From an uncultured Bifidobacteriaceae bacterium (lineage in GTDB: Bacteria > Actinomycetota > Thermoleophilia > Miltoncostaeales > Miltoncostaeaceae): a stretch of DNA of 64,000 nucleotides. Within the stretch, counting starts at the first letter, position 1, and each line of letters starts with the position of its first letter. Positions 19,440 to 59,506 of this stretch are shown here, one piece after another. A program made the position numbers and the translations under genes. Where the stretch lies: the NCBI GenBank assembly GCA_964406645.1, contig CAYOSM010000001.1:5564-69563 (forward strand), given 5' to 3'. Under the pieces are notes generated by a model. It saw only the letters and a program-made list of their open reading frames with translations, was not told the DNA's origin and did no database searches.

Positions 19440-20189
19440 GTGACCGAGCCCACGACAGAAACCAGGGAGATCAGCGTTCTCGTCTGCGAAGACGCCGAAC
19501 TCCAGATGAACACATTCAAGGAGGCCGTCGCCGGCACCTTCGAGGGTGTCACCATCAGCCAGTACGGATTCACGGCGATGTCCGTCGCCGACGCCGTGCA
19601 GCGGGCAACGCGAGCATCCGTGGACATCGTCCTCATTGACGACCACCTCCCGAGAGCACACGGTCAGAGCCCGGAGTACACGGGTGTAGAGACCGCAATG
19701 CGCATCGCGTTGACACATGACAAAAAGGGGACGAGGTGCCCGAGACTCGTCCTTTGGACCCGTGATCCTTCGCCCGTCCGCTGTTGCGGTTTCATGCTCT
19801 GCGGTGATCACGTGCTCCCCAAGGAGATGTCGGTCGAAGCAACCCGGCGCCGCCTTCTCGCCGTGATAGAGGGCGAGCGCTGGAAGCGCCCACCGCTACC
19901 CGACGGAGTCTCTCCGGCGGACACCGACCTCATCCCCTACATCCAGGCGGGGTGGACGACCTTGGAGATCGCGGATGCAACCGGCCGCACGGAAGACTCC
20001 GTGGACTCGGCGCGTAAACGTCTGGCCAATGCCCTCGGGGTGCCAGCCGGTGCAGGGCGTGCCGTACGGATTCCACAGGCAGCGACAGCTATCGGAATCG
20101 GATGGGTCTCTCTCGGGGACCGCGACCTCCTGACCAGCCTGCAGGCCGAGTACGGCCTCCCCAAACGGAGTCGTCCGGTCGCGCGCTGA
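19440..20189 (+). CDS. Response regulator, receiver + LuxR/FixJ-type HTH
   Basis: GTG start. Receiver features ISVLVCEDAEL, DIVLIDDHLP (acceptor Asp context), RLVLWT. C-terminal HTH GWTTLEIADATGRTEDSVDSARKRLANALGV. Confidence 0.75.
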   Translation: MTEPTTETREISVLVCEDAELQMNTFKEAVAGTFEGVTISQYGFTAMSVADAVQRATRASVDIVLIDDHLPRAHGQSPEYTGVETAMRIALTHDKKGTRCPRLVLWTRDPSPVRCCGFMLCGDHVLPKEMSVEATRRRLLAVIEGERWKRPPLPDGVSPADTDLIPYIQAGWTTLEIADATGRTEDSVDSARKRLANALGVPAGAGRAVRIPQAATAIGIGWVSLGDRDLLTSLQAEYGLPKRSRPVAR

Positions 20190-20271: not shown

Positions 20272-20302
20272 GGTGTGATCGGGCTTACCTCCCGATCACA
20301 CC
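20272..20302. terminator. 12-bp perfect stem hairpin GGTGTGATCGGG-cttacct-CCCGATCACACC (candidate bidirectional terminator)
   Basis: Read from the sequence. Lies 83 nt after the RR stop on the plus strand and 83 nt after the micro-ORF stop on the minus strand. No strong U-tract. Confidence 0.5.
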
Positions 20303-20384: not shown

Positions 20385-20477
20385 TCAGCCCTTGCACCAC
20401 CACGGACACGCCTTGTGGTTACCCTCTTTGCAGTGGGCACACTTGGAGCCTCTCTCAGTTTCACATGCACAAGCCAT
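20385..20477 (-). CDS. 30-aa cysteine-rich micro-protein MACACETERGSKCAHCKEGNHKACPWWCKG (metallothionein-like or zinc-binding)
   Basis: Hand-translated from the minus strand: ATG at 20477, TGA at 20387-20385. AAGGAG (complement of 20483-20488) lies 5 nt upstream of the ATG. 6 Cys + 2 His in 30 aa (CxC, CxxC, CxxxC). The 20272-20302 hairpin follows. Below the ORF-track length cutoff. Confidence 0.55.
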   Translation of the reverse strand: MACACETERGSKCAHCKEGNHKACPWWCKG

Positions 20478-20813
20478 ACCAACTCCTTCTGTCGTGTTCA
20501 CTCGTATCAATCGATTCGCACCGCAGGTACATCAGTCTATCACCCCCCCGACCCGACTACATAGACGAATCACCGCGGCACCACGAACACAGGCACGACT
20601 GGTGGTCACGAACATGCCGTCGGCGCCATTTCTCCGCGCATAACGATGCGGCGAGTGCCCACACATCGCATCTCGATTCATGCAGATACTACGTGACCTT
20701 CCTCTAACGCCAATAGCCACTATCATCGGTGCCTTGCAAGCGGCCATCCGCAACCGAACGGGTCTGAGCCACACACACCCAGCGCCTTCTGCAAGCACAA
20801 CCAAAGGACTCAC

Positions 20814-21650
20814 ATGGGTTTCTTCTTGAAACGTAAGTCAGCACCCACGTTGCCCGTGACACAGAGCGACCTGGCACGTCTCGGCTCCACCGGATTCGGG
20901 GGGGAGTCGCCCTTCCCCCCAGGACTCGCGCCGATCATGACGGAGCTCGACCAGATCGCGCTTCGCTGCATCGAACTGTACGGAGCCCACTCGATGCTAG
21001 GCACACCGGACTGGGATCGGGCATGTACATCGCTGATCGGAGAGTTGGATCAACTCGTCGACGATGACCCATGGGCGGGTATCGGAGCGCTATGCGCATC
21101 GGAGAACCTGGTCACCAACCGGGAGCTCCCGGCCTATGTGTCGCTCCTTGAAATGGGCCTGACCTTTCTTCGCACCGATGGTGTCGCGCTCGCCGCACTT
21201 CCCCAGAGTTGGGTCACCCACTACACGAAGAAGAACACGTTCACCTCGTGGCCCGGGAGTATGGACTACCTACCACCCGAGCAGGTCGGCGATCCCGGCG
21301 TGAATCTGGCTATCCCCAACGTCGGGGATTCGGTTGTCCTGGCGCGTACGCACTTCAGCGGATTCGAGCGCGAACTTTGCGCCGAACGCCGCGAGACCGA
21401 CCGCATCGTGGCCGTCTTGGAGGGCGCCACTCCCGAGAGAACCTCACAGCGGTGGGACTGGACGCTTGCCGACGGGCCCGTTCAAGGGAGCAACGACTAC
21501 ACCTTCTGCATGGCATTCGGAGACGCCGTGGGGTTCCCACCCACAATCTGGTGTGACCCGCGCATCGCATCGTTCTTCCCACGGCGTCCACGGACCCGGC
21601 AGCAGATGCGGGAGATCGCACGCGCACAACCGGCCGACGGCGGGATCTGA
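20814..21650 (+). CDS. Hypothetical protein (N-terminus MGFFLKRK)
   Basis: 278-aa ORF in an AT-richer segment; no motif recognised. Confidence 0.55.
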   Translation: MGFFLKRKSAPTLPVTQSDLARLGSTGFGGESPFPPGLAPIMTELDQIALRCIELYGAHSMLGTPDWDRACTSLIGELDQLVDDDPWAGIGALCASENLVTNRELPAYVSLLEMGLTFLRTDGVALAALPQSWVTHYTKKNTFTSWPGSMDYLPPEQVGDPGVNLAIPNVGDSVVLARTHFSGFERELCAERRETDRIVAVLEGATPERTSQRWDWTLADGPVQGSNDYTFCMAFGDAVGFPPTIWCDPRIASFFPRRPRTRQQMREIARAQPADGGI

Positions 21651-23244: not shown

Positions 23245-24531
23245 ATGCTCATGGGACTATTCCGCCGAAAGCACGCCGATCGCGCTCGGACAGAGGGCGC
23301 ATCAGCAGTTCGCGCGACTCTGACCAAAGCGGATTGCCGGTCCGCGCTGGAAGCGCTCGATGAGGTCGGCGCCGTTATGAACCAGGGCGACGCCCAGATC
23401 CGCGCCGCACTCACCCGCCTGGGACGACTCGCAAGCAGCTCAGATATTCCGGCCACGACCGGCGTCCCCTGGGCATGGCTCGCCGCCGCGTGCCGCACCA
23501 CGACAAGTGGATCACCGACCGAGCGCATCGCGCCACACTCGATCGCTCTGTGCGATTGGTGGCGCCGAATCTCTCCGAGCCTGACGCCGTTGGACTACCA
23601 CGACCTGGGCTTCTCCGGACTATCGGATGAGGCACACGGCGAGATCCTGGCCGCGGCACTGCCCGTACTGGAACACATGGGAGGCGTAGGACTCGACCAG
23701 TTTGCCGGTACCGGGCTGATGTCCACGGGCCAGCTGAAAGGCTTCGGCATCGGAGCGCTTGTCGACCTCGTCTCACGGGGCGTTCATGTCGACGACCGAG
23801 CCCGGGCCTTTGCCGCCCGGCCGAATGCCCTCATTGATCCGGCGCTGCTCTCGTCTCTTGCAGCGTACGCTCGAGGTGAGTTCGCGCCGCTCGACCCTGA
23901 CATCGTTCCCGCCCTGGAGGCGGAGCTCGAGGTCGCCAAGCGATTCGCGCACTTCGGCGACGACTTTGTCAAGGCCCTCGTCGGAGCGGCCTCGACGCCC
24001 AGTTGGCACGCGGTCGGGGCGGAGCGCGCGCTTCTCACTGTGACACCGATCGGGGGGACGAGCGAGTCCCTGCGTCCTCTTCTCGATGCGGCGGTCGCGC
24101 ACCTTCGCGCCCGGCTCATTCCGCCGATAATGCTAAGCGGGGTCGAGTGGAACCGTTGGCTCGATATCCGCGCCGAACGCGAGAGCCGGAACGAACCCAC
24201 GGATTGGTGGGTGCCCGCCGCCGAGCCGCAACCCGGCTCTCACGACCTACGCCCGCTATCCGACGGCGAGTCGCGCCATGTCCTCACGCTCGACCACAGT
24301 CCCGAGTCCAACATGTACTTCGTTCGCCGAGACGGGGACAAGTACATCTGGGAGAACGATCGGCCGTGGAGCATCGACGACCCGAGACGCGTTCGAAGCG
24401 AGACTTCTCGGTCGTCGAGCCTGTGGGCCCTCTACTTGGAGATGGGACGCAGCCTGGGAATGCGGCCAGCCTGGACAACGGAGGACTTCGCGCCGTTCGA
24501 TGGACTGCCTCGCCCGGATCTCTCGGCGTGA
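23245..24531 (+). CDS. Hypothetical protein (N-terminus MLMGLFRRK)
   Basis: 428-aa ORF upstream of the TraD-like ATPase; no motif recognised. Confidence 0.55.
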   Translation: MLMGLFRRKHADRARTEGASAVRATLTKADCRSALEALDEVGAVMNQGDAQIRAALTRLGRLASSSDIPATTGVPWAWLAAACRTTTSGSPTERIAPHSIALCDWWRRISPSLTPLDYHDLGFSGLSDEAHGEILAAALPVLEHMGGVGLDQFAGTGLMSTGQLKGFGIGALVDLVSRGVHVDDRARAFAARPNALIDPALLSSLAAYARGEFAPLDPDIVPALEAELEVAKRFAHFGDDFVKALVGAASTPSWHAVGAERALLTVTPIGGTSESLRPLLDAAVAHLRARLIPPIMLSGVEWNRWLDIRAERESRNEPTDWWVPAAEPQPGSHDLRPLSDGESRHVLTLDHSPESNMYFVRRDGDKYIWENDRPWSIDDPRRVRSETSRSSSLWALYLEMGRSLGMRPAWTTEDFAPFDGLPRPDLSA

Positions 24532-24757: not shown

Positions 24758-27271
24758 ATGAGACCTAACTCTCCTGAGATCAAAACCGTCACGCACGGTG
24801 GACGACGGGTGGCGGGACTGCAGCTCACGGAGCTTCGTGCGGATCGACGGCTGGAGTGGGCGTCGGTGCAGCGCGACATCGTCGCCTTCGTGATCGGGCT
24901 GGAGGGCTTCACCGATGCATCGGTCGTATTCCAGCTCGTCGGCCGGCCAGTGCCCGACGTCCCCGAAAGAGGGACCGTCGCAATCAACCTCCTGGCCGTC
25001 GTCGATGACACGCCGGATGCGACAGAACGCCTGAACATCGTCACAGAGGACCTGCTCGACCTGAGCACCGTCGCCCCGACGCGATGGACCTTCGAGCCGA
25101 TCGATGACGACGCGGGACTGAAGAACGCGGTCTCACCTGTTCCGACGACCCACACAGCCGAGATCGCGCGGAGCGAACATCCACTCTGGAATGACGATGC
25201 CTGGGCGGAAGCCGGGTTTCGTCCGCAGTCTCGCCAGATCCCCGCCCTTTGGGCGATGTGGCACCTCAGCCCACCGACGACTCCTGATCTCGCACGCCTC
25301 GCGCGAGTACTCCTTGCACAGGACCACCCGGTCGCGATCCGCACCATGGTTGCGCCCACAAAGCTCACCGATGTCGAGCGACGGACCCTGGAAGAGCTGA
25401 TTCAGGCGGAACGCCAGGGGCCACCGCGACGGGGACTCCACGCCGCCGCACTTCACTCGGTCGAACCGTTCCTGGTACAGCGCCAGCTGTTCGAGGTCCG
25501 CCTCACCGTCGCCAGTGGAGAGCCGCTCAGCGCCGCGCTCCTCTCGGCGCTGGGACACAGCGTCAGCGAGCCGCAGGACCCCGTCAAGGACGGCCAGATG
25601 TTGCGCGGCGGCTTCACCGTCGTGCGCGCGCGCGACGGCCGACACGACGACACGATCGCGGCAGCACACAACCTCGGGCGAGCCGACCCGCTCTCCGGCC
25701 TGGGGCCGGCCGGCCTCAGCCGACTTCGTCATCTGATGCCCGTGCGTGAAACGGCGGGGCTCGCTTGGTTGCCCGCCACCGAGGACGACTTCCCCGGCGT
25801 GGATGTGGTGAGAACCCCGGCCCTGCCGCCGGAGATCGATCGACTCCCGACGATGGGCACTCGGATCGGGCGATTGGTCGGCTTTGGCCGGCATGGCGTG
25901 CACCTCGACCCCGTGGAACGCTTCCGCCACATGTATGTATCGGGCCAGACGGGCACCGGAAAGAGCACGCTGCTCCTCAACTGCGCCCTCGACGATATCC
26001 GCCGCGGCGTCGGCGTCGTCGTCCTCGATCCCCACGGTGACCTGGTCGATGAGATCCTCGGCCGGGTACCGGATGATCGCATCGACGACGTGGTCCTCAT
26101 CGATCCCGCCGACCCGGATGCAGTCGTCGGTCTCAACCTCCTGGAGGCAGAGACCCCGACCCAGTCCTCATATGTACTCACCGAGTTGTCGGAGATGTTC
26201 CAGCGTCTGTTCGACCCCCAGAACCAGGGCATCGTCGGTCCCCGCTTCCAGACGATCTTCCGCCAATGCGCGATGCTGCTCCAGCAAAGCGATATGCCGT
26301 CGTCCTTCCTGGACGTCACCACGCCGCTGGCGGATCAGGCGGTGCGACAAGAGATGCTCCAACAGGTCACGGACCCAATCCTCCTCGAATTCTGGCACGG
26401 GGAGATGACGCAGAACAAGAGCAACGAACAATGGGAGGTCATCGCCTGGGTGCGGTCCAAGTTCGAGGTCTTCCGCACGTCCCCGCTACTGCGTCGGGTG
26501 CTCGGCCAGACATCGTCCACGGTCTCGTTCACTGATGCCCTCGCATCGCAACGGATCATCCTGGTGAACCTCTCGAAGGGACTCCTCGGGGAGTACAACT
26601 CCGCGATGCTCGGGTACCTCGTCTTCATGAAGCTCTGGGCTGCCGCGCTCGAGCGGGTCGCGATCCCCGCTGATGAACGACCCGAGGTCCAGGTCTACGT
26701 CGACGAGTTCCAGAACATGACGAATCGCTCGCTGCCCGACGTGCTGTCCGAAGCACGGAAGTTCCGTCTGGGCCTGACACTGGCCAATCAGTTCTTCACG
26801 CAGATCCCCGAGGACACGCGCGATTCCCTGATGGGCAACGTAGCGACGAGGATCACGCTCCGGATGGGGCCACGCGACGCGGGGGCCTTCGCAACATGGC
26901 TGGGCGAGGACGTCGGGGCGCGAGAGGTGACCTCGCTTCCCAACTACACGGCGATCGCCGCGACGAGCGCCCGTGGCGTTCCAATCGACCCGATGGTCGT
27001 CCAGTTGAGCGCTCCTGACGACGACTACGACCGTGACCGCGCGGCCGAGGTGCGGCGTCGATCCAACGCGCGCTGGGCAACACCGATCGACGGCCTCGAC
27101 CACGCCTTCTTCACGCGTTGGGCACAGGTGGACGGTTCGTTCGCACAGCGCGCCGCCGCTGCACGCGTCCCGAAGGAGCCCGAGCCCGACACCACGTTCA
27201 TCGACGACTGGCTGCAGAGTGATGAGCGACGCCACGATAGGACGCCGGCTCCGACGCCGGACCCGGAATGA
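24758..27271 (+). CDS. TraD/VirD4 (type IV coupling protein)-like P-loop ATPase with ~370-aa unknown N-terminal region
   Basis: Walker A YVSGQTGTGKSTLL; Walker B and TraM-recognition-type block VQVYVDEFQNM ... ARKFRLGLTLANQFFTQI; LVNLSKGLLGE. No TM segments noted. Confidence 0.8.
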   Translation: MRPNSPEIKTVTHGGRRVAGLQLTELRADRRLEWASVQRDIVAFVIGLEGFTDASVVFQLVGRPVPDVPERGTVAINLLAVVDDTPDATERLNIVTEDLLDLSTVAPTRWTFEPIDDDAGLKNAVSPVPTTHTAEIARSEHPLWNDDAWAEAGFRPQSRQIPALWAMWHLSPPTTPDLARLARVLLAQDHPVAIRTMVAPTKLTDVERRTLEELIQAERQGPPRRGLHAAALHSVEPFLVQRQLFEVRLTVASGEPLSAALLSALGHSVSEPQDPVKDGQMLRGGFTVVRARDGRHDDTIAAAHNLGRADPLSGLGPAGLSRLRHLMPVRETAGLAWLPATEDDFPGVDVVRTPALPPEIDRLPTMGTRIGRLVGFGRHGVHLDPVERFRHMYVSGQTGTGKSTLLLNCALDDIRRGVGVVVLDPHGDLVDEILGRVPDDRIDDVVLIDPADPDAVVGLNLLEAETPTQSSYVLTELSEMFQRLFDPQNQGIVGPRFQTIFRQCAMLLQQSDMPSSFLDVTTPLADQAVRQEMLQQVTDPILLEFWHGEMTQNKSNEQWEVIAWVRSKFEVFRTSPLLRRVLGQTSSTVSFTDALASQRIILVNLSKGLLGEYNSAMLGYLVFMKLWAAALERVAIPADERPEVQVYVDEFQNMTNRSLPDVLSEARKFRLGLTLANQFFTQIPEDTRDSLMGNVATRITLRMGPRDAGAFATWLGEDVGAREVTSLPNYTAIAATSARGVPIDPMVVQLSAPDDDYDRDRAAEVRRRSNARWATPIDGLDHAFFTRWAQVDGSFAQRAAAARVPKEPEPDTTFIDDWLQSDERRHDRTPAPTPDPE

Positions 27272-44114: not shown

Positions 44115-44544
44115 GCTGGCGCTTGGAGGGCGCGGCGTCGCTGGCCAGTATCGGACGATTCAGAGCCGATCCTCACATAGGAACGGCAGAGCATCTGGGG
44201 CGGTTCACGTCCACCCAACTCAGTCAACCACGCTCACCGCCGACCGAGCGTTCCGCTCCGACGCGGCCCGTTCACCATCAGTCACCTCAAGAGGCACGGC
44301 AGATAGAAGAAGCATACCCGCACGAAGGCGAAGCCCTTTGTGCGTCACATCACTCGTTATAATCACGCTGACTGAAACCGTTAGACCTTTGACCCTTTAA
44401 TCCCCTGGAACCGGTGGTGAAGAAATGGCCTGCCCATGTGTTGCCGCTCGCGGCTCTCAGTGCAAGTGGTGTAAGGAGGCCCAGACAGCGGGTAAGCCCC
44501 CGTCGCAGCACAACTGCCAATGGGGGCGCTGCACGTAGCGCAAA

Positions 44545-44972: not shown

Positions 44973-45425
44973 ATGAGTATGGGCCTCTTCCGACGTCAGC
45001 CGAAAACACACGGATCAGAAGATCCTTCCACAGGCCACCCCGGCGCGCTCGATTCCGGACGCCGCTTCTCGAGTCTGCTCCCTCTTGGTGATGCCGTCAG
45101 CACAGTGCAGCAGTTGATCGCCTCCTACGGGTGCGGGCCCATCGCGTCGGCAGAGTTCACATGGCACGGCCCACCGGACGAAGCCCCGGTTGAGGTGTTT
45201 GTCGCCGACATCACCGGCGCGTCCCATCCAGGTGACTATCTCGTCATCAGCTTCCGGGCCGACGGGGGCAGCACCGAGATCGGAGTCTTCCCCGAAGGAT
45301 CCGGCGACGATCGGCTAGCCATCCCATTCGCCGGCAACCTCAAGATGCTCGACAGATCCCTGAGTTCAACCGGGACCGTTCCCGGTGGCCAGCTCTCAGT
45401 TGCCTCGCCGCTGCTGGGCGGCTAG
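44973..45425 (+). CDS. Hypothetical protein (N-terminus MSMGLFRRQ)
   Basis: 150 aa; AAGGAG 6-7 nt upstream of the ATG; no motif recognised. Confidence 0.55.
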   Translation: MSMGLFRRQPKTHGSEDPSTGHPGALDSGRRFSSLLPLGDAVSTVQQLIASYGCGPIASAEFTWHGPPDEAPVEVFVADITGASHPGDYLVISFRADGGSTEIGVFPEGSGDDRLAIPFAGNLKMLDRSLSSTGTVPGGQLSVASPLLGG

Positions 45426-56371: not shown

Positions 56372-56636
56372 CGTTCAGATACCTCGCCAGATGCCGCAGG
56401 CGGCTGTGGATGAACGAGTGGAACTTCGGGGCGTCGACTGTGAGATAGGTCGTCAGATTCTCTTCAAAGGGAGATCGCAACCGTTGGAACTCCTTGTACG
56501 CCCGGTCGTCCCAGACGCGCTTAACCTCGGCCTCCGCATCCTCCAGCGCCGAGTTCATCACTCGGAGCGACCTGTGGAACTCGTCCAGTGCGCGACAGAA
56601 CTCCTTCATCGAGATATCGGTCTGATCGAGGTTCAT
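56364..56636 (-). CDS. Small helical protein, possibly WXG100 (ESAT-6)-like
   Basis: 90 aa; central VWDDRAYKEF (W-x-D in place of W-x-G); immediately downstream of the FtsK-like ATPase (ATGA overlap). Confidence 0.4.
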   Translation of the reverse strand: MNLDQTDISMKEFCRALDEFHRSLRVMNSALEDAEAEVKRVWDDRAYKEFQRLRSPFEENLTTYLTVDAPKFHSFIHSRLRHLARYLNGG

Positions 56637-59506
56637 GCGAGGTCCCGGACGAACGCCGCGATCTGATCCTGAAGGAGTCCGGATCTGTCGCCGGCGGGAA
56701 GACGCTGATCCTCAACGGTGAAGGGGATGCAGATCTGGGTACGGTTGATGCCGGCATCGGCCAGCAGCGCCTTGACCGGCTCGGCGTCGGCACCCTGGAC
56801 GGTCCGCGCATCCGCGGTGCCCAGCACCGTGAACGAGTCGTCCTCACCGCATTGAAGAACCATCTTGTGATCGAAGGCACTCATGTGACGGTTGCCACCC
56901 TGCGTCTGCAAGACGCGCGTCAGTCCGACAACGCTCCTGCCCACCACGACGACATGGACACCTACGGTCGGCCCACGGTCGAGTACGTCTCCCAACTGAC
57001 GTCCCAGATCGCTGGGTTCGTCACCGTAGGCATCCCGGACGTGTTCGAGCGCGGCGATGTACTCGGGCTCCAGGATGACGAGCATCACGCTTCGGGCATC
57101 CAGCTGTGCCTGCGGATCGAGGTCACGGCGCTCATCGATGAGCCCCACCAACCTGCCGAGCGTGTCCGCAAGTCCCGAAGGTTGGACCACATGGGCATCA
57201 TGGCCCAGATCGCGCGACACCCCAGGGAGGATGTCGGTGAACAGACCGGTCCAGTCGCCCGGACGCGAAGCCACGACCGTGATCATCTCCAGTCCCCCGG
57301 CCGGCATCGAGAGCGCGACCGACGTGAGTCCGGCAGCGCAGGCACCGAAGACGATCTCGAGATCCTGACCGACGATGAGGAGGTTTCCGCCCCTCCGCCG
57401 GGAGAGGGTGGCGATCGCCTGTCCGTGGACACTCAGGCCCTTCCCGAGCAGCAGGGGAACGGGGCGGTCCGCATCGTGCCATTGGGCGATTCCGAGCCCT
57501 CCACGGTCGGGAACGCTCTCGGCCAACTCGCGACGGCTCTGCGCATCGAGCCCACGCAGCGCGGCGATCCTCGGAAGCGCGGCGTTGGCGCGGAGGAACG
57601 GTTGGCAGTCACCGACGAACACGATCGGCCGTCGGTCCTCGTAGCCTCCAGCGTCCGCCTTGGACCGAATGTCGGATATGCACGCCGACAGCTCCGCATC
57701 GTCAAGCATGGCAATTCGGCCTGCCCGGTTGGCCGCATCCGCTCCGGCACGGGAGTTGACGACGGCCTTGCCGGGTGAATCACAGTGGCGCTTGATGAGA
57801 TCGCGCCCCTGCTTTCCGAACTCGACGAGTGACGCCTGCTCAGATTGACCCAGCGCGACGAGGTTGTGCATGTTCTCCATCATCGCGCTACTCCCGACCA
57901 TTCCCTGGGCGACGAAGCGCTGCGAGACAAGGAACAGGTGAACACCGGCCGCCCGCCCCTGCGCGGCGATCTTCTTAAGAGCATTCGAGGCGCGCTCCGA
58001 CTGCTCGATGGTGGATCCGAACAGTTCGTGGTACTCGTCGACGATGATGACGAGCCGGGGAAGCCGACGATCGTCAACCGCAGCTCGAAGGGCCGAGTAC
58101 TGGCGGACGTTGTCCTCGACACCGAGATCGTCGAACAGCCCGAAGCGGCGGTCAAGCTCCTCGGCCGCGTCCAGAAGGACGCTCAGCATCATCTCGGGTT
58201 GCGTCTTCAGCGACACCAATCGGGCGTGCGGGAGATCGCGGTAGATGCGGAACTCCACTCCCTGTTTGCCGTCGATGAGGTAGAAGGCGACCTCATCCGG
58301 TCCGTATCGCGTTGCCGCGCCGGTGATGAATGAGTGCAGAGCGATCGACTTGCCCATGCCGGGCATCCCGGCCTGGATCGTGTGCGCATAGACCTGTCGG
58401 TCCATGACCCCTGCCGGCCCCGGAGCCACCACCTCGCCGTAGGTGAGTTCGAGAAGCTGCGACGGGCCCGCCTGACCGATGGGCACGGTCACCGCCTCGA
58501 GACTCGAATGCTGCCACCAGCGACTCGGTTCGGTCTGGTTGATGGACGCCCACGTGACACGCGGTTGAACGGGCGTGAACCTCGAGAGAACACCGAGCCG
58601 CTCCCGTGCCGTCGTGAGGTCGCCACCCAAGGAGTCGAGCCGGAGTTCGCAGGCGAGTCCGCCCCACTCGACGCGCGTACGATCACCGGCGATGTCGACC
58701 GTTGTCGTCTCGCCGAGGTCGAGGCCCCCGGCATCACGGGTGTCGACATCGAGATCGTGATGGACGACGACGAGCGCACCGGCGGGAGCGAACCGGACCA
58801 CACGTCGCAATGCGTCCAGCGCCCGTCTGTCACACCCATTCGGGATGTCAGCCGCGACGACGAGGTTGAACCGCTCGCTCATGCGAAGCTCGTCGGGAAG
58901 ATCCGCCAGTGGTACGTCCGGGTAGAGATCGGTGACCCGCTGGCAATACGCAGCCACCTGGGCGAGCTGCTCGGCGATGTCGCCGCTCGCCGCTACGACG
59001 CCCGGGATGTCCGCCGAGAGGGGAAAGCTCCGCCCCATGCCGATCGGATCGATGAGGTGCACGCGCACCTGATGAGGCATAGAGAGCGCCACGCGCAGGG
59101 CGATGGACTGGAGGAACTCCTTGGCCCGGGCCGCCGCGTCCCCGCCGCGCGTCCGGATGACGATCGGACGGTCGGACCCGACGAACGGCACAAGCGCGGG
59201 AGCCACGAACTCGCCCTGATCCAGGAGGTCTCCGATCCGGATCCACCGTGGTGGGGCGGCGTGATCGGGTTCCCATGTCGACCATGCGGCATGGCTCCAC
59301 GGACGCCGCGCAGCGACTTCATCGTCACCGACAGCCGCATCGATGGCCACACGGTTGCGGCTGAGTTCATCAACCACATGGCGGTCGGCGACAGTCGCGG
59401 CGGCAAGACCGGCACCGATCTGGCCGCGAAGCTCCGCCCGGGCGGCATCGAGTTGCTGACGGATCGTGTCAAGCTGTGCGCGGGCACTGTCGATGGCGGC
59501 GCTCAC
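56633..59506 (-). CDS. FtsK/SpoIIIE-family ATPase, EccC/EssC-like, soluble (no TM seen)
   Basis: Walker A QAGMPGMGKSIAL; Walker B LPRLVIIVDEYHELF; AAQGRAAGVHLFLVSQRF. Downstream ATPase-like modules lack a P-loop (degenerate). N-terminal coiled coil. Confidence 0.82.
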   Translation of the reverse strand: MSAAIDSARAQLDTIRQQLDAARAELRGQIGAGLAAATVADRHVVDELSRNRVAIDAAVGDDEVAARRPWSHAAWSTWEPDHAAPPRWIRIGDLLDQGEFVAPALVPFVGSDRPIVIRTRGGDAAARAKEFLQSIALRVALSMPHQVRVHLIDPIGMGRSFPLSADIPGVVAASGDIAEQLAQVAAYCQRVTDLYPDVPLADLPDELRMSERFNLVVAADIPNGCDRRALDALRRVVRFAPAGALVVVHHDLDVDTRDAGGLDLGETTTVDIAGDRTRVEWGGLACELRLDSLGGDLTTARERLGVLSRFTPVQPRVTWASINQTEPSRWWQHSSLEAVTVPIGQAGPSQLLELTYGEVVAPGPAGVMDRQVYAHTIQAGMPGMGKSIALHSFITGAATRYGPDEVAFYLIDGKQGVEFRIYRDLPHARLVSLKTQPEMMLSVLLDAAEELDRRFGLFDDLGVEDNVRQYSALRAAVDDRRLPRLVIIVDEYHELFGSTIEQSERASNALKKIAAQGRAAGVHLFLVSQRFVAQGMVGSSAMMENMHNLVALGQSEQASLVEFGKQGRDLIKRHCDSPGKAVVNSRAGADAANRAGRIAMLDDAELSACISDIRSKADAGGYEDRRPIVFVGDCQPFLRANAALPRIAALRGLDAQSRRELAESVPDRGGLGIAQWHDADRPVPLLLGKGLSVHGQAIATLSRRRGGNLLIVGQDLEIVFGACAAGLTSVALSMPAGGLEMITVVASRPGDWTGLFTDILPGVSRDLGHDAHVVQPSGLADTLGRLVGLIDERRDLDPQAQLDARSVMLVILEPEYIAALEHVRDAYGDEPSDLGRQLGDVLDRGPTVGVHVVVVGRSVVGLTRVLQTQGGNRHMSAFDHKMVLQCGEDDSFTVLGTADARTVQGADAEPVKALLADAGINRTQICIPFTVEDQRLPAGDRSGLLQDQIAAFVRDLA

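What the first reader, a model, noticed from the sequence alone, without database searches (positions are those of the whole stretch)
20385..20488. Unannotated 30-codon cysteine-rich micro-ORF with canonical Shine-Dalgarno and hairpin terminator
The minus strand reads AAGGAG-ttggt-ATG GCT TGT GCA TGT ... TGG TGG TGC AAG GGC TGA, giving MACACETERGSKCAHCKEGNHKACPWWCKG (6 Cys, 2 His). It sits in an otherwise ORF-poor, AT-richer 620-nt spacer. A 12-bp perfect hairpin (20272-20302) follows 83 nt downstream. The CxC / CxxC / CxxxC spacing suggests metal binding (metallothionein-like or a mini zinc ribbon). A disulfide-rich or RiPP-type peptide cannot be excluded.
Basis: seen in the sequence. Interest (0 to 1): 0.6.

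Follow-up and report, generated by a model that had tools for sequence, protein, structure and literature searches.

The report
Conserved six-cysteine micro-protein gene family
The 30-codon cysteine-rich reading frame is a real gene that gene callers appear to miss; it belongs to a rare, undescribed family of 30-38-residue proteins with six invariant cysteines, found in mobile and defence islands of Actinomycetota, and it probably folds around a metal ion, though its function is untested.

Summary
The ORF is not a chance frame. A HMMER search of 1.8 billion proteins, plus genome and metagenome scans, recovered about 35 loci with homologues of 30-38 aa (consensus MACACEKDRGxGNKCAHCKEGNHKACSSFGKCS). 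They come from Streptomyces, Streptacidiphilus, Blastococcus, Nocardioides, Propionibacteriaceae and actinobacterial MAGs.

Six Cys are invariant, as is Glu6, and a His always lies 2-3 residues before Cys5. Among 13 distinct 33-codon genes, 28/33 third positions vary against 9/33 first and 9/33 second positions (dN/dS about 0.07). Conservation ends at the start and stop codons, and a Shine-Dalgarno site precedes 30 of 31 distinct genes.

A profile built without the window's sequences finds this ORF (E=7.6e-11). It also finds a second, unnoticed paralogue at 44425-44538 (+) (E=2.2e-6).

No Pfam, NCBIfam, PHROG, PADLOC, PDB or literature match exists. Flanking genes vary (TIR/STAND, FtsK, TraG, IS) and include no modification enzyme or metal-homeostasis gene, but two uncharacterised protein families recur nearby.

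My best reading is a stand-alone metal-thiolate (probably Zn) mini-protein carried as island cargo. The metal binding and the cellular role are inferred, not shown.

The parts
20385..20477 (-). Micro-gene copy 1: 30 codons plus TGA, MACACETERGSKCAHCKEGNHKACPWWCKG. This is a divergent short form of the family (C3, C5, C13, C16, H21, C24, C28).
   Evidence: A leave-out family HMM scores it 43.5 bits, E=7.6e-11 against all 49,498 six-frame segments of the genome. All six family-invariant Cys are present.
20483..20488 (-). Shine-Dalgarno site AAGGAG, 5 nt upstream of the ATG.
   Evidence: A purine-rich SD at the same distance precedes 30 of 31 distinct family genes, although the upstream DNA is otherwise unrelated.
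20272..20302 (.). 12-bp perfect stem with a 7-nt loop and no U-tail. It is a probable intrinsic ('I-shaped') terminator and may serve both the micro-gene and the convergent gene ending at 20189.
   Evidence: The 161-nt 3' region folds at -78.4 kcal/mol, z = -3.67. Strong stem-loops lie within 100 nt of the stop in most other family loci. No shuffled control was run on those loci, so they are suggestive only.
44425..44538 (+). It belongs to the long subfamily, and its SD is weak (GGTGGTGAAGAA).
   Evidence: Leave-out HMM 29.2 bits, E=2.2e-6; the next best hit in the genome has E=0.87.
20814..21650 (+). Divergently transcribed 278-aa gene of 'family A' (about 246 aa, N-terminus MxWFxRRPK, uncharacterised). 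This is the most frequent neighbour of the micro-gene.
   Evidence: No Pfam, PADLOC or PHROG hit.
23245..24531 (+). 428-aa gene whose C-terminal half is a second family-A domain.
   Evidence: seed member. No Pfam hit.
44973..45425 (+). 150-aa gene of 'family B' (about 130-150 aa, uncharacterised), 435 nt downstream of micro-gene copy 2 on the same strand.
   Evidence: Family B lies beside the micro-gene in L037, L039, L041, L045/55, L046 and L053. No Pfam or PHROG hit.
19440..20189 (+). Convergent 249-aa receiver-like plus HTH protein with weak domain scores. Response regulators also neighbour the micro-gene in L045/L055, where a 123-aa receiver ends 25 nt before the micro-gene start.

Best explanation
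The ORF is a translated, independently transcribed micro-gene with its own SD and a hairpin terminator. It is one of two paralogues in this window of a previously undescribed family of 30-38-residue cytoplasmic proteins, patchily distributed in Actinomycetota. SHOWN: protein-level purifying selection; six invariant Cys with spacing C-x-C-x(7,9)-C-x2-C-x(7,14)-C-x(3,5)-C; an invariant Glu6; a His always 2-3 residues before Cys5; an aromatic residue between Cys5 and Cys6; conservation that stops at the start and stop codons; a rare, patchy distribution in variable accessory regions rich in conjugation and defence genes. INFERRED: the peptide has no signal peptide and would sit in a reducing cytoplasm, so the six thiolates plus His (and perhaps Glu6) most likely wrap the chain around a metal centre. 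The likeliest centre is Zn(II): one ZnCys4 site from C3/C5/C13/C16 plus a second, partly open His/Cys/Cys site, or a binuclear Zn2Cys6-type cluster. That would give a rigid mini-domain. The strong conservation of non-ligand surface residues (K17, E18, G19, N20, A4, A14) suggests it acts by binding a specific partner, protein or nucleic acid, rather than by bulk metal buffering. SPECULATIVE: the partner belongs to the mobile-element or defence cargo it travels with, for example the recurrent family A/B proteins.
For: Homologues: two small hits in 1.84 billion representatives; 8 loci in 185,579 species genomes; 16 metagenome loci; further contigs. Selection: in 13 distinct 33-codon genes, variable sites are 9/33, 9/33 and 28/33 at codon positions 1, 2 and 3; mean dN 0.083, dS 1.14. 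Every alternative frame is broken by stops in some members. The start codon varies (ATG/GTG/CTG) at one fixed place, and an SD precedes 30/31 genes. Flanks are unrelated between loci. Invariant C3, C5, C13, C16, C24, C28 and E6. The leave-out HMM finds exactly two hits in the genome, E=7.6e-11 and 2.2e-6, with the next at 0.87. AlphaFold2 on the family alignment gives a compact model, mean pLDDT 81.5, with three short helices. No modifying enzyme or metal-homeostasis gene recurs. Contexts seen: TIR, STAND, FtsK/SpoIIIE, TraG/TrwB, UmuDC, IS, CHAT, DUF4192. Family A or B lies within about 2 kb in about 12 independent loci. One of four family-A loci picked without regard to the micro-gene also carries it.
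Against: Foldseek against PDB gave no match, and the PDB profile search gave only insignificant motif-level hits to FdhE and a LIM domain, E about 0.5. Seven conserved ligands do not map cleanly onto any standard one- or two-zinc site. The window copy 1 has an atypical C-terminus (C-x3-C instead of C-x5-C) and lower GC3 than its neighbours (0.61 against about 0.75), so it could be a decaying copy. The neighbour association is partial and variable in order and orientation. It may reflect only shared residence on the same mobile elements.
Confidence: 0.6

Rival explanations
1. It is a miniature metallothionein: a cytosolic buffer or detoxifier that stores Cu(I) (for example a Cu4(S-Cys)6 cluster) or Zn/Cd on its six thiolates, carried as a metal-resistance cargo gene.
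For: C-x-C and C-x2-C motifs, 18-20% Cys, small size, six thiolates matching the known Cu4S6 stoichiometry (established knowledge of Ace1, Mac1 and fungal Cu-metallothioneins), and a cytoplasmic location.
Against: No match to bacterial metallothionein models or any other Pfam/NCBIfam model. Cys content is below typical metallothioneins. A conserved aromatic residue and strongly conserved non-Cys residues (dN/dS 0.07) are atypical for them. None of about 25 independent loci has CsoR, ArsR/SmtB, CopZ, a P-type ATPase or another metal gene nearby.
Confidence: 0.15
2. It is an iron-sulfur or redox-switch mini-protein. Four of the Cys hold a [2Fe-2S] or [4Fe-4S] cluster, or the thiols form reversible disulfides, and the protein signals redox or NO stress in the manner of WhiB-type proteins.
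For: Actinobacteria use small Cys4 Fe-S proteins (WhiB family; established knowledge). There are six invariant Cys. The weak motif-level resemblance is to the rubredoxin-like FdhE segment CACE...KCSHCEE (E=0.53, not significant).
Against: No homology to Wbl proteins or ferredoxins. The spacing differs from known cluster-binding motifs. At 30 aa it is very small to shield a cluster.
Confidence: 0.1
3. It is a RiPP precursor or a disulfide-rich secreted peptide, processed by enzymes encoded elsewhere.
For: Small, Cys/Ser-rich C-terminus (CSSFGKCS). One locus (L047) has a radical-SAM gene about 1 kb away on the opposite strand.
Against: Only 1 of about 25 independent loci has such an enzyme. No LanB/C/M, YcaO, rSAM-SPASM, protease or transporter recurs. 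There is no signal peptide. The whole 33 residues are conserved from Met1 rather than showing a leader/core split. No NCBIfam precursor model matches.
Confidence: 0.05
4. It is a cysteine-sensing leader peptide (attenuator uORF), like the Cys-rich uORFs described in mycobacteria.
For: Cys-rich short ORFs with regulatory roles were proposed in mycobacteria (PMC4633059).
Against: In the window the next gene downstream is convergent, and a strong hairpin closes the unit. Downstream genes differ in every locus. The Cys codons are dispersed, and the amino-acid sequence itself is under strong selection, which an attenuator does not need.
Confidence: 0.02
5. It is not a protein gene: a chance ORF, or a conserved RNA element or antisense ORF that happens to be open in this frame.
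For: Short length. GC-rich genomes have many open frames: 32 ORFs of 20-60 aa with at least 6 Cys genome-wide. Antisense frames are open in many members.
Against: Third-position-biased variation, dN/dS 0.07. Stops interrupt every alternative frame in some members, while the micro-ORF frame is always open with a fixed start and stop. Indels come in whole codons. An SD is always present. No Rfam hit.
Confidence: 0.02

Closest known systems
Small zinc-finger micro-proteins and zinc knuckles (e.g. CCHC knuckle C-x2-C-x4-H-x4-C, Pfam PF00098; haloarchaeal CPxCG zinc-finger micro-proteins; ribosomal bL36, C-x2-C-x12-C-x4-H)
   Same: Size of 30-40 aa. A C-x2-C knuckle followed by a short helix and a His/Cys pair: the window peptide has C-x2-C-x4-H-x2-C. 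Cytoplasmic, stand-alone, with conserved surface residues.
   Different: No sequence-model match. The H-to-C spacing differs, and the knuckle spacing is not kept in the long subfamily (C-x2-C-x12-H-x-C). Three further invariant Cys have no counterpart.
Fungal Zn2Cys6 binuclear cluster (Gal4 type, PF00172)
   Same: Exactly six invariant Cys in about 30 residues with short helices. It could in principle hold two Zn with bridging thiolates.
   Different: The spacing C-x2-C-x6-C-x(5-12)-C-x2-C-x(6-8)-C is not met. No Pfam match. There is no attached DNA-binding linker or dimerisation region. The phylum is different.
Bacterial and fungal metallothioneins (SmtA/BmtA PF02069; mycobacterial MymT; Neurospora 25-aa Cu-metallothionein)
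   Same: Very small, with C-x-C and C-x2-C motifs and His among the ligands. The thiolate count is compatible with a Cu4S6 or Zn cluster.
   Different: Lower Cys content, a conserved aromatic residue, high conservation of non-Cys residues, no metal-responsive neighbours and no model match.
Cys-rich uORF attenuators of mycobacteria (PMC4633059)
   Same: Actinobacterial, unannotated, Cys-rich short ORFs.
   Different: Those lie upstream of, and co-directional with, Cys-metabolism genes and carry Cys-codon clusters. This gene is a terminated stand-alone unit in variable contexts.

Membership tests
New 'MACACE' Cys6 micro-protein family (defined here) | N-terminus M-[AS]-C-x-C and six Cys with spacing C-x-C-x(7,9)-C-x2-C-x(7,14)-C-x(3,5)-C in 30-38 aa | tested here: met
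   The window peptide has C3, C5, C13, C16, C24 and C28; all six columns are invariant in 21 sequences.
New 'MACACE' Cys6 micro-protein family (defined here) | Significant score against a profile built without the window's own sequences | tested here: met
   43.5 bits, E=7.6e-11 for copy 1 and 29.2 bits, E=2.2e-6 for copy 2, against 49,498 six-frame segments; the next hit has E=0.87.
New 'MACACE' Cys6 micro-protein family (defined here) | His 2-3 residues before Cys5, an aromatic residue between Cys5 and Cys6, and C-A-[HW]-C-K-E | tested here: met
   H21-K-A-C24, W26/W27 and C13-A-H-C16-K-E in the window peptide.
Metallothionein (operational class; SmtA/BmtA PF02069, MymT) | Match to a metallothionein sequence model | tested here: not met
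   No Pfam or NCBIfam hit at E<=1.
Metallothionein (operational class; SmtA/BmtA PF02069, MymT) | Very high Cys content (about 25-35%) with few or no aromatic residues | tested here: not met
   6 of 30-37 residues, or 16-20% Cys. An aromatic residue between Cys5 and Cys6 is conserved in all members.
Metallothionein (operational class; SmtA/BmtA PF02069, MymT) | Genomic or regulatory link to metal sensing or efflux | tested here: not met
   No metal-homeostasis gene in any annotated flank. Upstream regions share no operator-like motif.
Metallothionein (operational class; SmtA/BmtA PF02069, MymT) | Metal-thiolate cluster with high metal-to-protein stoichiometry | not testable with these tools
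   Needs native MS or ICP-MS of the peptide.
CCHC zinc knuckle (PF00098) | C-x2-C-x4-H-x4-C spacing and a model match | tested here: not met
   The window has C-x2-C-x4-H-x2-C and the long subfamily C-x2-C-x12-H-x-C. No Pfam hit.
Zn2Cys6 binuclear cluster (PF00172) | C-x2-C-x6-C-x(5-12)-C-x2-C-x(6-8)-C | tested here: not met
   The spacing differs. No Pfam hit.
RiPP precursor (ranthipeptide/SCIFF, lanthipeptide, etc.) | Conserved adjacent modifying enzyme, protease or transporter | tested here: not met
   Only L047 has a radical-SAM gene nearby, on the opposite strand. Nothing recurs across about 25 loci.
RiPP precursor (ranthipeptide/SCIFF, lanthipeptide, etc.) | Leader/core architecture, or a match to a precursor model | tested here: not met
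   Uniform conservation from Met1 to the C-terminus. No NCBIfam hit.
Cys-responsive leader peptide (attenuator uORF) | Lies upstream of, and co-directional with, a regulated operon | tested here: not met
   The downstream gene is convergent and a 12-bp hairpin follows the ORF. Downstream genes differ between loci.

The most novel reading that the evidence does not exclude
The family is a new class of mobile-element-borne metal-cluster micro-protein that acts in trans on the conflict machinery it travels with. It might act as a zinc-clasp adaptor, or as an inhibitor or regulator of the recurrent family A/B proteins, of conjugative FtsK/TraG translocases, or of TIR/STAND immune sensors. That would explain two paralogues sitting in one defence island, one of them 311 nt downstream of a TIR-STAND gene.
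Probability: 0.12. Interest if true: 0.8.

Novelty: new variant of a known kind. Interest (0 to 1): 0.55.

Why it matters
Micro-proteins under 40 residues are routinely missed by annotation. This one is demonstrably under strong purifying selection, has two copies in one defence island, and matches no described family. It offers a compact, chemically tractable 30-33-mer that can be synthesised, with which to define a possibly new Cys6His metal site. Its patchy distribution on conjugative and defence-rich accessory DNA, beside two equally uncharacterised protein families, points to a set of unexplored actinobacterial cargo genes. One of those families, family A, gives a confident predicted fold with no PDB relative. 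If the peptide modulates conjugation or immunity it would join the small but growing group of micro-protein regulators.

Tried and rejected
- Single-sequence search of 60 relatives found only noise (best E=0.007, with an internal stop).
- A DNA search of the 631-nt spacer in 400 class genomes found only 23-63-nt chance matches. The locus is therefore not syntenic in relatives.
- Pfam, NCBIfam, PHROGs and PADLOC returned nothing for the peptides. Rfam returned nothing credible.
- The promoter scan found no sigma-70-like site.
- IMG/VR, INPHARED phages and PLSDB plasmids gave no match. BLAST low-complexity filtering may have contributed to the two tblastn negatives.
- The PDB profile search gave only E about 0.5 motif hits. 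Foldseek on the 30-aa model found nothing.
- Literature string searches for MACACEK and CAHCKEGNH found nothing relevant.
- The neighbour 278-aa protein has no close homologue by word search.
- The family-A AlphaFold model (pLDDT 92) has no PDB structural relative; best Foldseek E=0.31.
- The repetitive hits P0001-P0004, P0006 and P0007 in the representative search are repeat proteins sharing only a '(G/Q)(G/R)HKACPY'-type word, and were discarded.

Full report
**1. Observation**

The minus strand of 20477..20385 reads ATG GCT TGT GCA TGT GAA ... TGG TGG TGC AAG GGC TGA, which gives MACACETERGSKCAHCKEGNHKACPWWCKG.
- AAGGAG sits 5 nt upstream, at 20488-20483.
- The ORF lies in a 624-nt gap between a convergent 249-aa receiver/HTH-like gene (19440-20189, +) and a divergent 278-aa gene (20814-21650, +).
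- GC in the gap is 0.591, against 0.657 for the window and 0.69 for the genome.
- The inverted repeat 20272-20283 / 20291-20302 is 12 bp, perfect, with a 7-nt loop. It dominates the predicted fold of the 3' region, whose overall z-score is -3.67. It lacks a U-tail, and the simple terminator scan did not list it.

All parts of the description are correct.

**2. Chance**

In the whole 2.63-Mb, 69%-GC genome there are 1,544 ATG/GTG ORFs of 20-70 aa preceded by an SD-like pentamer. This ORF is the most Cys-dense of them. Unlike the others with at least 5 Cys, it lacks the Arg/Pro/Ala/Ser-rich composition of off-frame GC-rich DNA. That is suggestive but not decisive, because 32 first-start ORFs of 20-60 aa with at least 6 Cys exist genome-wide.

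**3. Homologues**

Relatives of the host genome do not carry it. This holds for 60 relatives searched by protein, 400 class genomes searched by DNA and 400 phylum genomes searched by profile.

An exhaustive HMMER search of 1.84 billion representative proteins returned two small proteins sharing the first 26 residues (P0005 and P0008). Seeding from these gave:
- 8 loci in the GTDB species genomes: two Streptomyces, Streptacidiphilus carbonis, a Blastococcus MAG, Nocardioides mangrovicus, Propionibacteriaceae UBA7704 and two Actinomycetota MAGs;
- 16 loci in JGI metagenomes;
- further contigs.

In total there are 31 distinct gene sequences. Where sources name the protein, the name is 'hypothetical protein'.

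The commonest form is 33 aa, MACACEKDRGxGNKCAHCKEGNH[KR]ACSS[FYW]GxCS. A 37-aa subfamily reads MACACEKERKSKCAWCKEAE..G.PKS.H.CQWGxCS. Short 31-aa forms (L069, L070) and a 38-aa bridging form (L071) connect them. The window peptide combines the short N-terminal spacing with the CAHCKEGNHKAC block and a shortened C-terminus.

**4. It is a protein-coding gene**

- Among the 13 distinct 33-codon genes, variable sites number 9/33, 9/33 and 28/33 at codon positions 1, 2 and 3. Mean pairwise dN is 0.083 and dS is 1.14, a ratio of about 0.07.
- Length differences come in whole codons.
- The start codon varies (ATG, GTG, CTG) at one fixed position. A purine-rich SD lies 5-10 nt upstream in 30 of 31 distinct genes, while the rest of the upstream and downstream DNA is unrelated between loci.
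- Each of the five alternative frames is interrupted by stops in some members: 2, 24, 8, 17 and 3 of 31.
- A profile built from 20 family members, excluding the window's sequences, was searched against all 49,498 six-frame segments of the genome. It gives exactly two hits: this ORF (43.5 bits, E=7.6e-11) and a second ORF (29.2 bits, E=2.2e-6). The next best is E=0.87.

**5. A second paralogue**

The second hit is window 44425-44538 (+), MACPCVAARGSQCKWCKEAQTAGKPPSQHNCQWGRCT. It is a 37-aa member of the long subfamily and starts 311 nt after the stop of a 1,024-aa TIR-STAND gene. Neither window peptide is in the 15-billion-protein collection, although the neighbouring 278-aa product of this genome is. 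The gene callers therefore seem to have skipped both.

**6. Anatomy of the protein**

- Invariant residues are C3, C5, C13, C16, C24, C28 and E6, in window numbering.
- K17 and E18 are nearly invariant.
- A His always lies 2-3 residues before Cys5, and an aromatic residue always lies between Cys5 and Cys6.
- The residue between C13 and C16 that is His in most members is Trp in the long subfamily, so it is not a ligand.
- There is no signal peptide or hydrophobic segment.
- AlphaFold2 on the 17-sequence alignment gives mean pLDDT 81.5 with three short helices, at 4-7, 14-18 and 25-28. Foldseek found no PDB match.
- No Pfam, NCBIfam, PHROG, PADLOC or PDB-sequence hit exists.

**7. Context**

No gene is always adjacent. 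Flanks contain:
- TIR and STAND NTPases (both window copies, L047, L049, L053);
- FtsK/SpoIIIE ATPases (window 56633-59506, L044, L045/L055);
- TraG/TrwB coupling proteins (L054, L077, and the window's TrwB/HerA-like 24758-27271);
- UmuDC, IS transposases, DUF4192, CHAT, DUF900 and WYL regulators.

Earlier notes of this scan on the same genome describe 27.9-44.1 kb as a TIR-STAND defence island and 45.5-63.7 kb as containing a type-VII-like export cassette. My own Pfam results agree on the TIR/STAND and FtsK domains.

Two uncharacterised protein families recur.
- Family A is about 246 aa with N-terminus MxWFxRRPK. It appears twice in the window (20814-21650 and 23245-24531) and in L039, L044, L045/55, L046, L049 (twice), L050-52 and L077.
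- Family B is about 130-150 aa. It appears at window 44973-45425 and in L037, L039, L041, L045/55, L046 and L053.
- A zinc-ribbon-containing family C occurs in L039, L045/55 and L070.

In L045/L055, families A, C and B form a tight operon with the FtsK-like gene, and a 123-aa receiver gene ends 25 nt before the micro-gene.

I also tested the association from the other side. Of four family-A loci chosen without regard to the micro-gene, one (L077, beside a TraG-type gene) carries it. For a gene found in only 8 of 185,579 species genomes, that is far above chance. The association is still partial and variable in order and orientation, so co-residence on related mobile elements is the safest reading.

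Family A gives a confident AlphaFold model (pLDDT 92) with no PDB relative.

Strong stem-loops follow the stop codon in most loci. This fits a monocistronic unit, but no shuffled control was run for those loci.

**8. Mechanism**

Shown: this is a translated-type gene under strong purifying selection, with six invariant Cys, moving horizontally among Actinomycetota in accessory DNA.

Inferred:
- It most likely forms a cytoplasmic metal-thiolate mini-domain, because a 30-residue chain with six invariant thiols, a His and no export signal has few other ways to fold.
- Zn(II) is the most likely metal.
- The C13-x2-C16...H21-x2-C24 segment resembles a CCHC knuckle. However, the spacing is not conserved in the long subfamily, and three more Cys must be accommodated.
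- Candidate arrangements are therefore a ZnCys4 site (C3/C5/C13/C16) plus a partly open His/Cys/Cys site, or a binuclear Zn2Cys6-like cluster.
- The high conservation of non-ligand residues argues for a specific binding surface rather than bulk metal buffering.

Rivals:
- Metallothionein-type Cu/Zn storage (0.15). It is weakened by modest Cys content, the conserved aromatic residue and the absence of any metal-homeostasis neighbour.
- Fe-S or redox switch (0.10).
- RiPP precursor (0.05). No recurrent enzyme and no leader/core split.
- Cys-sensing leader peptide as in mycobacteria (PMC4633059) (0.02). It is excluded by gene order.
- Non-coding or chance ORF (0.02).

**9. Limits**

There is no metal evidence. 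The host taxon was not named. The family census depends on pattern-seeded scans and will miss divergent members. Window copy 1 has lower GC3 (0.61) than its neighbours (about 0.75) and an atypical C-terminus, so it is the most divergent member and could be under relaxed constraint, although all invariant residues are intact.

**10. Verdict**

It is a founding-level description of an uncharacterised Cys6 micro-protein family with two copies in this window. The kind of thing it is, a small Cys-rich and probably metal-binding micro-protein, is known, but the family, its ligand pattern and its mobile/defence-island habitat are not described in any library or paper I could search.

Noticed in passing
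window 44425-44538 (+): Second, previously unnoticed paralogue of the micro-gene (37 aa, MACPCVAARGSQCKWCKEAQTAGKPPSQHNCQWGRCT). It starts 311 nt after the stop of a TIR-STAND gene and lies 435 nt before a family-B gene.
   Followed up: yes
window 20814-21650 (+), 23245-24531 (+); L050 660-1400 (-): 'Family A', about 246 aa: 61 close homologues, all named hypothetical or unnamed, with a conserved N-terminus MxWFxRRPK and no Pfam, PADLOC or PHROG hit. The AlphaFold2 model has pLDDT 92 (helical N-domain plus beta-rich C-domain) with no Foldseek match in PDB (best E=0.31). It may be a new fold typical of actinobacterial defence or mobile-element islands.
   Followed up: partly
window 44973-45425 (+); L041 5441-5893; L053 4577-5014; L055 4789-5187 (-): 'Family B', about 130-150 aa, is another uncharacterised recurrent neighbour. 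Together with a zinc-ribbon 'family C' (L055 4087-4779) and a family-A-like gene, it forms a tight operon behind a 1,093-aa FtsK/SpoIIIE gene in L045/L055. Many of these proteins begin with a similar M-x-[LFW]-F-x-[RK]-[RK] motif.
   Followed up: partly
L038 426-551 and L053 6161-6286: A second conserved micro-protein (41 aa, MAYNPEKAGSKS[FY]ETKPRET.APSEKVVKALG.TAIKGS..; 88% identical between the two loci). It lies 60-160 nt downstream of the Cys6 micro-gene.
   Followed up: no
L038 715-1236, L049 4386-4661, L053 6839-7120, L063 390-671, L068 3550-3864: A family of about 90-aa proteins that look like two-TM membrane proteins (conserved ...WP(V/I)(V/F)L.VW...G(R/K)P..PW). It recurs within 0.3-2.6 kb of the micro-gene in five loci.
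   Followed up: no
window 24758-27271 (+): An 837-aa TrwB/HerA-like ATPase matches the PADLOC model mad8 of the MADS defence system (E=2.2e-13) as well as TrwB_AAD_bind.
   Followed up: no
L037 237-377: One family member (P0005, 46 aa) diverges completely after Cys5 (..KACSYTESAPDRLL..) and lacks the sixth Cys. It is probably a frameshifted or decaying copy.
   Followed up: no
L046 1522-4348: A D-2-hydroxyacid dehydrogenase and a D-Ala-D-Ala-ligase-family gene (a vanH/vanA-like pair by domain content) lie 1.6-4.5 kb upstream of the micro-gene in an uncultured actinomycete chromosome.
   Followed up: no
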